From Eledone cirrhosa (taxonomy: Eukaryota): 64,000 bases of DNA. Below are positions 2,390 to 64,000 of this stretch, piece by piece. Position 1 is the stretch's first letter. Each line of letters begins with the position of its first letter. Under the pieces are notes generated by a model. That model had not been told where the DNA came from. It saw only the letters and a program-made list of their open reading frames with translations, and did no database searches. Made by a program: the position numbers and the translations under genes. The stretch is taken from assembly GCA_964016885.1 (NCBI GenBank), contig OZ024749.1, positions 56,544,001-56,608,000 of the forward strand, read 5' to 3'.

Positions 2390-3529
2390 AGAAATCCCTA
2401 AGTGTATGAAACTTTGTTTAAAGCTGTTGAAGTGGCAAGAGTTCAGCAGTCGGGCTCTGTATAGCCATACTCTACTATCACAAATATCCAGTACTCTGTT
2501 AAGTAATGGTCAAACTAGTTTTATCTGAGTCTATGCCGCAAACTAAACACAAAAACAAAATGGTGTAGGACAGAACTGAGGAGAGACACAAAATAAAAAC
2601 CTAGTCACTGAGGGCGTCACAGAATGTGTGACGAAAGAGCTTAATACATAAACAACCTCCCGCTTATCGAACCAACCAGCCAACCGAAAACTTATAATAA
2701 ATTGAAGTGGAAATCAACTGGTGCGTGTATTTTTATTGGCAACATGACCCTCCCAAAGTATAACACTATCTGTTTCAACACGTTTTTAGATAAGAAATCT
2801 TGCAAAATAAATTGAAAAACGAATTATATATATATAGAGAGAGAGAGAGACTTGTAAAAGTTATATTTTAACGGGAGTTTTTTGTTAGTTTTTAAACGTT
2901 TTTTTTCTTTTCTCTAAAGATAAAGTAAATATAATTGAAGTGTTAATATTTTTAAAAAAGGATATGTTTTGGTTCCTTGTGTAATGAAAGTTTGAGTCTC
3001 ATCTTGGTAAAAATATCCAACAAAGATAACGAGTTATTATTGTTGTCTGTTTACAATGTCAGCCTAGATACAACTCCATGACAACTTTTCAAAGTATCAC
3101 TATACGCATGTGTGAAAAAGAAGGGTAATAATAAAATGAGGAATGTGTAAATGAGAACGAAATATCTTTCAATTTCTTTTTTTTAATTTGCTTAAATTTA
3201 ATCTAATTTCCTTATAATAATATTAAGAGGCTACAATTTTTTTTTATTAATTAAAGCAAAAGCTTGTTTTTGGACTTGTATTATTTAAATGTATAAAATT
3301 TTGTTTAATAACTTAAGTTTACTATAATATGTTAAGTATGTATTCTCGTTTTATTGAGCACGAAATAACATAAATTCTATTCTTGAAATTAAGTGCATTT
3401 TAAAATTCTAAATTATGTTTTTTAAACAAAGAAAGTGGGGAATAAATTAATAAAGTTCTGATTTAGAAAAAACAAAACAAACAAAAACTGCTGTTTCTTT
3501 CCGGAGGTCCATTCTGTGGTTTAACTTCG

Positions 3530-22029: not shown

Positions 22030-22154
22030 AACAAATTTGCTTTCAGTTATCAGAATGAAGAAATCCTGGTGTTTTTATTGAATGTGGATTTGAAATCCAC
22101 ATTCAATAAAAACACCAGGATTTCTTCATTCTGATAACTGAAAGCAAATTTGTT
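22030..22154. repeat. Perfect palindrome, 62-bp arms, 1-nt loop
   Basis: 22030-22091 is the exact reverse complement of 22093-22154. Confidence 0.95.
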
Positions 22155-22187: not shown

Positions 22188-22262
<75 letters not shown>

Positions 22263-22412
22263 TTATTAAAATAACAGATTAAAGTTTAAGCAAAGAATCG
22301 CTGCTTTCACCCTTAACGGGATCTTCTGAAATAAATATTTGCTCTACGGTTCTTATATATTTGATATATATTTATCCTTATCGAGCCCTCTTTGGATTTT
22401 AGTCTTCAAATT

Positions 22413-22460
<48 letters not shown>

Positions 22461-22541
22461 GTATATATATATATATATATATACACGTATATATATATAT
22501 ATATATATACACGTATATATATATATATAATGATATATATA

Positions 22542-22866
22542 ACGAACGAAGGAAGTGTGGTAAGGAACCAGGTGAACCATAACGCACCAGAGTACTCGAT
22601 ACTTAGGGTAGTAGAGTGGATAATAGGAAAAGAGTCAGGACCCCGACGGCTGAGCTCCGGCCGTTTCGACAGTTAGATCCGAACTGAAGTGCCAGTATTC
22701 GTGCGGCGAGGGAATACTGGCGCTCTAGTTCGGATCTAGCTGTCGAAATGGCCGGAGCTCAGCCGCCGGGGTCCGGAATCATTTCATATTACCCACTCTA
22801 CTACCTCAAGTACTGAGTACTCTGGTGGGTTATGGTCTAGCTGGCTTTTACCACACCCTCTCCGAC
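22542..22866. mobile_element. ~325-bp rod-like fold-back element with 15-bp flanking direct repeat
   Basis: Imperfect ~150-bp arms around a loop at 22701-22711. ATAATGATATATATA at 22527-22541 and 22867-22881. Second family member at 62891-63052. Confidence 0.8.
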
Positions 22867-23256
22867 ATAATGATATATATATATATACATACATGAATAG
22901 CGAAAACAATACTGACAATCTTAATAGAAAACTAGAACGCAGGAAAGGAAAACAGTGTAAATAATAATAATAACAAATATAAGAGCAATAATAATAAATG
23001 GAATAGGAGTAACAAGAAAATGAAGAGAAAATAAAGAGAAACGCTTAAATAACAACACTGACAGTAAATGATAATAAACAATAACATGGAAACAATGAAC
23101 ATAATAGAAAAATGGAAGAAGGTGTGAATAGGATGTTGTCGGCACTAATTGAAGGTAACAGGTTGGAACTAGTGAAGGATTCACTGAGAAGCCTACAGCA
23201 TAGTGTAGAAGACACTGGCATACATGGTATATGGGATATATATATATATATATATG

Positions 23257-23363: not shown

Positions 23364-23455
23364 TATATATATATATATATATATTTACACACTGTATCTA
23401 GATATCTATAACTTATATATATATATATAAGTTATAGATATCTAGATACAGTGTG

Positions 23456-23479
<24 letters not shown>
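23364..23479. repeat. Perfect palindrome centred on (TA)n
   Basis: TTTACACACTGTATCTAGATATCTATAACT-(TA)n-AGTTATAGATATCTAGATACAGTGTGTAAA, extending into TA runs on both sides. Confidence 0.95.
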
Positions 23480-44620: not shown

Positions 44621-44969
44621 GGGGGGGGGGTGACTTCGAGATTCAGGTGTTGTTGTTTCATGGATCAACCAAATTTAGCAATGAAATCTGAAAATTCAGA
44701 GATACTGCCACGTTTGATTTAAGAAAATAAATTTTACACACGGCCTATACGTATTGAGTACTCAATATCAATCGAATATTAAAACTCTCGTCCTGCTTTA
44801 TAAATCGTTAAACTAATATATTTCTTCATTGTACTGTGTTGTTTGGTTTGTTATTTCTGTTTACTTATAGCAAAGATATATATTGACTATCGAAATGGCA
44901 CCAGCGCAGCCGTCGGGGACAAAACTTTCTAATACATATATATATATATGCAAAGGCTTCCAAAACACC

Positions 44970-49297: not shown

Positions 49298-49549
49298 ATA
49301 AATTAATAAAAACAATGAATAAAAACAAAGAAACAGTTCCTTATATTAAAAAATTCATCATTTTACGATCGTTTCTAGGATATATATGTGTGTGTTGGTA
49401 TGTATATCTGATAGTTTATAATTTTTTTACATAGATCTATATAATATACATACCAACACACACATATATATCCTAGAAACGATCGTAAAATGATGAATTT
49501 TTTAATATAAGGAACTGTTTCTTTGTTTTTATTCATTGTTTTTATTAAT

Positions 49550-49553
<4 letters not shown>
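49298..49553. repeat. Perfect inverted duplication, 110-bp arms, 36-bp spacer
   Basis: 49298-49407 is the reverse complement of 49444-49553. The same peptide KLIKTMNKNKETVPYIKKFIILRSFLGYICVCWYVY appears on both strands in the ORF track. Confidence 0.95.
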
Positions 49554-62890: not shown

Positions 62891-62892
<2 letters not shown>

Positions 62893-63047
62893 CGAAGGAA
62901 ATGTGGTAAGGAACCAGGTGGACCATAACGCACCAAAGTACTCAATATTTGAGGTAGTAGAGTGGGTAATAGGAACCAGTAAGACCCCGACAGCTGAGCT
63001 CAAGCCGTCGAAACGGCTTGAGCTCAGCTGTCGGGGTCTTACTGGTT

Positions 63048-63052
<5 letters not shown>
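62891..63052. mobile_element. Truncated copy of the 22542 fold-back element ending in a perfect 40-bp hairpin
   Basis: 62891-63008 aligns with 22545-22664. 62969-63008 is the exact reverse complement of 63013-63052 (loop CGAA). (TA)n on both sides. Confidence 0.85.
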
Positions 63053-63842: not shown

Positions 63843-63934
63843 TCTAGCTAGACGGATTCGAACCTTCGACCTAAGGATAACAACTACCTATAACAAACTA
63901 CAGTCCTCCGCTCTACCTACTGAGCTATCGGGTA
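63843..63934 (-). tRNA. tRNA-Tyr(GTA) with 19-nt intron, probably a pseudogene
   Basis: Minus strand reads TACCCGA TAGCTCAGTAGGTAGAGC G GAGGA CTGTAG [TTTGTTATAGGTAGTTGTT] A TCCTT AGGTC GAAGG TTCGAAT CCGTC TAGCTAG A. D arm and anticodon arm match eukaryotic tRNA-Tyr, with the intron at canonical 37/38 (63879-63897). Acceptor stem TACCCGA/TAGCTAG is mostly unpaired and the T stem has one mismatch. Confidence 0.88.
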
Positions 63935-64000
63935 ACTTGCTTCTTACCACCAAATTTAACATTGAAATTGGATTTGAAATAAATTTAATGATTACAATTG

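What the first reader, a model, noticed from the sequence alone, without database searches (positions are those of the whole stretch)
22527..22881. Rod-shaped ~325-nt fold-back element with a long (15-bp) target duplication: candidate hairpin retroelement
Seen: a GC-rich island in TA microsatellite that is self-complementary along its whole length (imperfect ~150-bp arms, loop 22701-22711), non-coding, without A/B boxes, and flanked by ATAATGATATATATA on both sides. Many arm differences are A/G or C/T changes, including several GA/AG swaps. Left-arm-specific residues (TAAGGAACCAGGT, ATAACGCACC, TAATAGGAA) are kept in the second copy at 62891, so the asymmetry is a family trait, not local decay. 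Known: MITE TSDs are short and fixed (2-10 bp) with matched termini, while ~15-bp TSDs are typical of target-primed reverse transcription. Here the extreme termini do not match. Inference: a non-autonomous element that moves via a rod-like (viroid-sized) RNA and targets TA tracts, and a potential source of ADAR or Dicer substrate.
Basis: partly seen in the sequence, partly recalled or inferred. Interest (0 to 1): 0.75.

Follow-up and report, generated by a model that had tools for sequence, protein, structure and literature searches.

The report
Two Penelope retrotransposon ends joined head-to-head
The hairpin is real, but it is the cut-short ends of two related copies of a known kind of jumping gene (a Hydra-clade Penelope-like retrotransposon) joined back to back in a TA repeat, likely laid down in one insertion that copied two different RNAs, and not a new rod-shaped RNA element.

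Summary
The 325-bp fold-back and its 15-bp flanking repeat are real. It is not a fixed rod-shaped element. Each arm is the 3' end (pseudo-LTR plus ~78-nt 'tail') of an abundant Penelope-like retrotransposon. Walking upstream reached 3.5-3.6-kb tandem units with an RT + GIY-YIG ORF carrying the Hydra-clade motifs. Head-to-head pairs of such ends are common here, 109-325 bp long, with a different joint at nearly every site. This is the published inverted-pLTR structure.

The arm asymmetry is not rod-RNA design: the left outer arm belongs to subfamily A and the right arm to the older subfamily B. Four of 23 two-tailed pairs are such hybrids. That likely records two different RNAs copied in one insertion; later replacement of one arm is not excluded. 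Both arms lack the hammerhead core strand. No RNA of this species was served, so expression and editing are untested.

The scan has already reported these Hydra/Penelope ends and twin priming on other DNA of this genome. The cross-subfamily arms are what this locus adds.

The parts
22527..22541 (.). left copy of the 15-bp direct repeat (likely target-site duplication) in an interrupted (TA)n tract
22542..22544 (.). 3 extra bases duplicating the tail terminus (likely slippage at the priming site; inference)
22545..22622 (-). 'tail' of a subfamily-A PLE 3' end (78 nt beyond the short 3' end; in full units it continues into the 5' UTR and the ATG)
   Evidence: TA loose ends at 22623 in reads
22623..22685 (-). 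subfamily-A pseudo-LTR end; 97% identical to copy L016 over 141 nt including the tail
22640..22680 (-). 3' half only of the predicted type I hammerhead (stem II 3' strand, GAAA, stem III, GUC, stem I 3' strand); the 5' core strand is lost by 5' truncation
22686..22714 (-). B-type inner inverted segment, including the 11-nt 'loop', which is simply further B pLTR sequence; ends in a 3-nt overlap (GAA) with the right arm
   Evidence: junction read from the sequence
22712..22789 (+). subfamily-B pseudo-LTR end, 5'-truncated; carries the hammerhead 3' half (22732-22772) with the cleavage triplet changed to GCC
22790..22866 (+). 'tail' of a subfamily-B PLE 3' end
22867..22881 (.). right copy of the 15-bp direct repeat
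62891..63052 (.). second family member (younger D-type): one tailed arm plus a short tail-less inverted arm, the commonest layout

Best explanation
The fold-back is two 5'-truncated 3' ends of a Hydra-clade Penelope-like retrotransposon, one from subfamily A and one from subfamily B, joined head to head in a TA repeat, and it was likely made in one insertion in which the element's enzyme primed reverse transcription from both cut strands on two different RNAs. Shown: the identity of the arms, the coding parent, the two sharp 3' ends, the variable joints, the hybrid arms and the 15-bp repeat. Inferred steps: (1) the RT/GIY-YIG protein nicks both strands of the TA target about 15 bp apart; (2) each 3'-OH primes at the tail start site of an RNA, a B RNA on the right and an A RNA on the left; (3) both cDNAs stop early, near hammerhead stem II; (4) the B cDNA folds back and copies itself (the B-type inner left segment, with a GAA overlap), then anneals to the A cDNA in the ~42-nt stretch where A and B are identical; (5) repair leaves the duplication. 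The product is a dead-on-arrival insertion with no ORF and no complete ribozyme. I put the identity as PLE ends at about 0.95 and the one-event, two-RNA origin at about 0.6.
For: Parent: in L084 one continuous copy runs from a GIY-YIG remnant through ~1.2 kb of UTR to this end. 17 of 20 loci picked by the ORF end run collinearly to the same 3' end, several with an inverted copy at the 5' side. The tail continues into an ATG and an ORF N-terminus. 3.5-3.6-kb tandem units with RT and EN exist (L204 period 3496 bp). Clade: RWR, DKT, YRDD, CxCX5C, CxxC and CxH are present, CX2-5CxxC is absent and no CCHH is seen in the printed EN, as defined for Hydra (PMC8557442 section 11); Hydra-1_Obim in that paper's supplement is a clear homologue by eye. 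Structure: 188 of 422 arms end exactly at the tail end and 125 at a second site 76-78 nt inside, like the two RT start sites of PAc, whose protein cuts and extends both strands and is predicted to be a dimer (PMC11167929). Hybrids: 4 of 23 full two-tailed pairs have outer arms of different subfamilies (window, L132, L140, L148); outer divergences are similar within three of the four pairs (3/2, 3/4, 6/5; the window 4/8), as expected if the arms are the same age. One direct repeat brackets the whole window pair.
Against: In 3 of the 4 hybrids the 'foreign' outer arm is from the on-average younger subfamily, and the window's left arm is the less diverged (4 vs 8 differences; small numbers). Both fit a later replacement. 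75 of 83 typed pairs have both arms of one type, so two different RNAs would be the minority route. One other copy (L094) has a B-type inner with an A-type outer diagnostic and three have the reverse, so a rare recombinant subfamily cannot be excluded for the left arm. Family-wide TSD evidence is weak: 4 of 113 informative direct duplications against 0.9 expected, and none above chance with a looser rule (18 vs 17). Pfam gave no family for the four young ORF pieces and only a sub-threshold RVT_1 hit for a related one. The hammerhead has no Rfam hit and is not the predicted MFE fold.
Confidence: 0.62

Rival explanations
1. Two steps: an older B/B inverted insertion with the 15-bp duplication came first. 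Later, a younger A cDNA, primed in the adjacent TA run, annealed to the left arm and replaced its outer part (or gene conversion from an A copy did).
For: The inner left segment is B-type. B copies are older than A on average (median outer divergence 10.6% vs 5.6%), the window's A arm is less diverged, and the foreign arm is from the younger subfamily in 3 of 4 hybrids. PAc can nick its own pLTR (PMC11167929). Family members often insert beside each other.
Against: L140 has the foreign arm from the older subfamily. In L132 the C/D-type arm is unusually old for its subfamily (5/93, near the 90th percentile) and matches its partner. No leftover of a displaced arm lies outside the repeats.
Confidence: 0.27
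2. Pure self-priming: one cDNA folded back and copied itself, and the arms then drifted apart in place.
For: Self-priming is the published proposal for inverted PLE junctions (PMC3846280). Some pairs share rare variants in both arms (L121, L142, L143), and 5 pairs mirror their flanking DNA. So this route likely operates in the family.
Against: It cannot give this locus: the outer arms differ at 21 of 91 positions and sort to two subfamilies, and the flanks are direct, not mirrored.
Confidence: 0.05
3. One reading: a non-autonomous element that moves as a 325-nt rod-like, possibly circular RNA (viroid- or retrozyme-like).
For: Very stable rod; size within the 170-400 nt of animal retrozyme RNAs (PMC7229834 abstract); the family carries a hammerhead motif.
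Against: No second copy with this joint among the 40 best candidates. Pair lengths vary from 109 to 325 bp. There is no hammerhead core on either strand and no tandem monomer array at this locus. The arm differences are subfamily markers, not compensatory pairs.
Confidence: 0.03
4. A MITE (non-autonomous DNA transposon) with long terminal inverted repeats.
For: Inverted structure with a flanking direct repeat, and TA targets.
Against: The ends belong to an RT-encoding element. The commonest layout is asymmetric (74 of 140 pairs have one tailed and one short arm), the joints vary, and there is no fixed TSD.
Confidence: 0.01

Closest known systems
Hydra clade of C-terminal EN+ Penelope-like elements (Craig et al. 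2021, PMC8557442), e.g. Hydra-1_Obim, Penelope-13_HM
   Same: ORF motifs (RW[K/R], DKT, CxCX5C linker, CxxC/CxH, no CCHH), (TA)n targets, hammerhead motif in the pLTR, inverted 5'-truncated copy attached (noted for Penelope-13_HM).
   Different: A different family: the hammerhead listed for Hydra-1_Obim differs; here stem II carries a ~50-nt insert and the core is mostly U3-A8. Units are 3.5-3.6 kb, against under 3 kb as a rule. The tail is ~78 nt, not 30-40, and ends before the ATG.
Inverted pLTR plus optional tail of EN+ PLEs (Penelope of Drosophila virilis, Pen2a_Av of Adineta vaga; PMC3846280)
   Same: Head-to-head inverted ends, tail usually on one side, short variable TSDs (8-10 bp reported there).
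   Different: Here both ends are tailed, nothing lies between them, the duplication is 15 bp, and the arms come from two subfamilies.
PAc (Poseidon of Anolis carolinensis) in vitro mechanism (PMC11167929)
   Same: Two internal RT start sites that define the tail; AT-rich target; both strands cut and extended; predicted dimer.
   Different: Different clade; that work (parts 1-2 of 4 read) does not test two different RNAs in one insertion.
Animal non-LTR retrozymes (PMC7229834; bioRxiv 10.64898/2026.07.22.740005)
   Same: Small, non-coding, PLE-related, hammerhead-bearing family.
   Different: Those are tandem monomers with complete ribozymes that give circular RNA; this locus is an inverted pair with no ribozyme core.
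L1 twin priming (recalled, no call)
   Same: Inversion joined through microhomology after priming on both target strands.
   Different: In L1 both primers use one RNA and the inverted part is internal; here each arm starts at a normal 3' start site, on different templates.

Membership tests
Penelope-like element (EN+) | single ORF with RT and C-terminal GIY-YIG endonuclease, linked to these ends | tested here: met
   Motifs were read from ORFs of real copies; Pfam gave no hit on the young pieces and a sub-threshold RVT_1 hit on a relative. The A/B-linked ORFs are decayed and 62-79% identical to the young ORF.
Penelope-like element (EN+) | pseudo-LTR from partial tandem; tail = start of the next unit | tested here: met
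   (shown in the younger C/D sister subfamily, which shares the tail)
Penelope-like element (EN+) | inverted 5'-truncated copy at the 5' end; optional tail at either end | tested here: met
   140 pairs, of which 74 tail/short, 37 tail/tail, 2 short/short, 27 with one irregular end (sample biased by the searches used)
Penelope-like element (EN+) | short target-site duplication of variable length | tested here: inconclusive
   15 bp at this locus; family-wide 4 of 113 against 0.9 expected, most flanks being pure TA; no empty allele seen
Hydra clade | RWK and DKT motifs | tested here: met
   RWR and DKT in L203, DKT in L204; definition
Hydra clade | CxCX5C linker, CxxC and CxH around E and N, no CCHH, no CX2-5CxxC | tested here: met
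   L201 and L204; CCHH absence read by eye from the printed protein
Hydra clade | insertion into (TA)n | tested here: met
   82 left and 92 right flanks of 113 are TA within one mismatch over 8 nt
Hydra clade | canonical hammerhead ribozyme in the pLTR | tested here: inconclusive
   All stems and core residues are placed in 28 copies: 89.6% of cells paired, core pair 3-8 paired in 28 of 28 (UA 19, UG 7, CG 2), double changes in stem II between subfamilies (related sequences inflate this). But no Rfam hit, not the MFE fold, and cleavage not assayed.
Hydra clade | placement in an RT phylogeny with reference PLEs | not tested
   reference sequences were seen only as supplement text
Non-LTR retrozyme / viroid-like circular RNA | complete self-cleaving ribozyme within a repeated monomer | tested here: not met
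   no core strand on either strand of 22542-22866; inverted pair, not tandem
Non-LTR retrozyme / viroid-like circular RNA | expressed as linear and circular RNA of unit length | not testable with these tools
   no run on record as RNA for this species was served
MITE | fixed element length with matched termini and fixed TSD | tested here: not met

The most novel reading that the evidence does not exclude
Head-to-head PLE insertions whose two arms come from different subfamilies, bracketed by one target duplication, are genomic footprints of a single insertion using two different RNA templates (a dimeric RNP priming both target strands), with fold-back copying bridging the two cDNAs. PLE lineages with only about 67% ORF identity would then co-insert through a shared 3' end.
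Probability: 0.5. Interest if true: 0.5.

Novelty: new member of a known kind. Interest (0 to 1): 0.27.

Why it matters
As an object it is an ordinary dead insertion of a known retrotransposon class. Its modest value is mechanistic. How PLEs form their inverted ends is stated as unresolved (PMC8557442 passage), and self-priming is the published proposal (PMC3846280). Pairs whose arms carry different subfamily markers cannot come from self-priming alone. This genome holds at least 310 two-tailed arrangements, enough to count hybrids and date both arms, so the two-RNA model is testable by genomics and by a two-template in vitro assay. My paper searches found no report of cross-subfamily inverted PLE pairs; the library lacks most subscription journals, and Repbase and Dfam could not be searched.

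Tried and rejected
Rfam on the locus: only sub-threshold hairpin and miRNA-type matches; on 5 loci with the full motif, no hammerhead family at E<=0.05. A first pattern for a hammerhead core within 8-38 nt of stem II gave 4 unrelated hits; the core lies about 50 nt further upstream and mostly begins with U. Two apparent ~1-kb tandems and two ~7.5-kb pairs were separate insertions or a local duplication, not units. I first read the ORF as Nematis-type from recalled motifs and dropped that. Pfam and PDB sequence search gave nothing useful for the family's own ORFs, and the protein Atlas gave no result. The loose TSD rule showed no excess over shuffled flank pairs. The inverted-flank hit L138 is an alignment artefact and was dropped (6 to 5). 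Hybrid calls dropped: L123 (three-part), L115, L118 and L127 (multi-part or TA-separated), L122 (types one or two bases apart). L152 looks hybrid but is too short for the outer/inner test. No empty allele was found by laying 4 runs (TA repeats were skipped). Two guessed-RNA runs of another organism laid nothing on a full unit, which proves nothing. A search of earlier findings by sequence was empty. Supplements of the bioRxiv preprint are closed and may bear on the retrozyme comparison.

Full report
Observation. The stretch 22542-22866 is self-complementary along its length (-237.3 kcal/mol, z -22.5, 0 of 100 shuffles as good). The arms agree at 128 of 156 columns, with 20 transitions and 7 transversions. 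The same 15-mer flanks it at 22527-22541 and 22867-22881 and occurs 3 times in 942 kb of held DNA. The window lies in a 3.0-Gb animal genome. That it looks octopod is my recall plus the homologue named below; it was not determined.

It is not a fixed element. A search of the own genome gave 5739 first-look candidates, of which 40 were scored; only the locus itself covers all 325 bp. A 45-nt core occurs exactly 648 times. Typical copies are one arm with a ~78-nt outer extension plus a shorter inverted arm, turning at a different place each time, with both ends in (TA)n. In all DNA held, 422 distinct arms end mostly at two sharp sites (188 exactly at the tail end, 125 at 76-78 nt inside). They form 140 head-to-head pairs of 109-325 bp: 74 tail/short, 37 tail/tail, 2 short/short and 27 with an irregular end (the sample is biased by my searches). 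An exact-motif search finds 310 two-tailed arrangements genome-wide, some of them neighbouring separate insertions. The window's second copy (62891-63052) is of the tail/short kind.

The parent. Walking upstream from the arm led to L084, where one copy runs from a decayed GIY-YIG domain through about 1.2 kb of UTR into this end. Of 20 loci chosen by that ORF end, 17 run collinearly to the same 3' end, and several carry an inverted copy at the 5' side. In a younger sister subfamily the tail continues into a 5' UTR and an ATG, and 3.5-3.6-kb tandem units with RT and endonuclease exist. Their proteins carry RWR, DKT, YRDD, CxCX5C, CxxC and CxH and lack CX2-5CxxC; no CCHH is seen in the printed sequence. 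These are the features that define the Hydra clade (PMC8557442, section 11 read whole; other passages). Hydra-1_Obim in that paper's supplement is homologous by eye but has a different hammerhead (supplement passages). Pfam did not recognise the four young ORF pieces. The ORFs linked to the window's own subfamilies are decayed and 62-79% identical to the young one. Pieces of the ORF and of the end are also in a run of a second organism.

Hammerhead. Full pLTRs hold a type I hammerhead motif with a long stem II. In 28 copies 89.6% of cells pair, the core pair 3-8 pairs in all 28 (UA 19, UG 7, CG 2), and stem II shows double changes between subfamilies (relatedness inflates these counts, and the number of pairs with double changes does not exceed the shuffles). 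Against it, Rfam gives no hammerhead hit and it is not the predicted MFE fold. Both window arms are truncated before the core strand, so the locus has no complete ribozyme.

The asymmetry. Clustering 185 tailed arms gave subfamilies of different mean divergence: C/D 2.7%, E 5.1%, A 5.5% and B 8.7-9.6%. The window's left outer arm is 4/93 from A and 17 from B; the right is 8/91 from B and 16 from A. The left arm is 97% identical to a copy elsewhere but only about 82% to its partner. Its innermost ~29 nt, including the 'loop', are B-type and overlap the right arm by GAA. Most pairs have both arms of one type (75 of 83 typed, against 69 of 83 differing if arms paired at random). Four of 23 full two-tailed pairs are clean hybrids (window, L132, L140, L148); in L132 and L148, as in the window, the inner stem is of one class in both arms.

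Target duplication. Of 113 pairs with defined ends, only 26 have an interrupted TA tract on both sides. Informative direct duplications number 4 (9, 10, 15 and 18 nt) against 0.9 expected, and mirrored flanks 5 (6 before dropping an artefact) against about 0.9. A looser rule shows no direct excess (18 vs 17). The 15-mer is therefore likely a real TSD of this one insertion, but a family TSD length is not established, and no empty allele was seen.

Mechanism. The structure is the published PLE inverted pLTR with tail (PMC8557442; PMC3846280 passages). In vitro, the PLE PAc cuts and extends both strands of AT-rich DNA, starts RT at two internal sites that define the tail, and is predicted to be a dimer (PMC11167929, parts 1-2 of 4 read). 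I infer one insertion primed from both strands on an A RNA and a B RNA, bridged by a short fold-back of the B cDNA and annealing in the 42-nt stretch where A and B are identical (0.62). The main rival is later replacement of one arm of an older B/B insertion (0.27): the foreign arm is from the younger subfamily in 3 of 4 hybrids, though arm ages match within L132, L140 and L148. Self-priming alone, a mobile rod RNA and a MITE are contradicted. For retrozymes I saw the abstract and outline of PMC7229834, and the listing plus a term search of bioRxiv 10.64898/2026.07.22.740005. No RNA run of this species was served, so transcription, editing and small RNAs are untested.

Novelty and score. This is a new family of a known clade in a known insertion structure. 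Earlier notes of this scan, which are unchecked AI notes, already reached Hydra/Penelope ends and twin priming on other DNA of this genome; my clade reading was recorded before I saw them. What this locus adds is cross-subfamily arms under one target duplication, for which searches found no report. Interest 0.27; novel case 0.5 likely, 0.5 if true.

Noticed in passing
window 22030-22154: Perfect 62-bp-arm palindrome with a 1-nt loop next to a TA tract, with a CTGATAA..GAAA motif; looks like the inverted end of another PLE family (similar sequence in L165).
   Followed up: no
window 22260-22410: Another high-copy TA-flanked repeat end, with many opposite-strand joints and loose ends near 22330 in reads; also seen in L025, L034 and L065.
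   Followed up: no
window 23364-23479 and 49298-49553: Further perfect palindromes: one centred on a TA run, one with ~110-bp arms.
   Followed up: no
window 2469-2522 and 44886-44918: Weak, diverged matches to the tail and to the stem III region; likely older relatives.
   Followed up: no
window 63843-63935 (-): tRNA-Tyr(GTA) gene called by ARAGORN; its length suggests an intron.
   Followed up: no
L121, L142, L144, L051, L161: Flanking DNA is mirrored (inverted, 13-51 nt) around the pair, 5 cases against about 0.9 expected: fold-back copying into the flank, or insertion at the centre of an older palindrome.
   Followed up: partly
L164-L169: Three-arm insertions in which the tail reads on for 70-270 nt into the 5' UTR and ORF start and then joins another short 3' end.
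   Followed up: partly
L177-L202 (young subfamily): The hammerhead core is U3-A8 instead of C3-G8 in most copies; older copies show U3-G8 and C3-G8.
   Followed up: partly
G000:C14 near 25.10 Mb and 25.40 Mb (L183-L186, L195, L196, L200, L201): The same tandem-plus-inverted full-length array appears twice about 300 kb apart; segmental duplication or uncollapsed haplotype.
   Followed up: no
L092, L093, L097, L111, L113, L201: ORFs of several other PLE families (RT and/or GIY-YIG) lie within a few kb of sampled copies.
   Followed up: no
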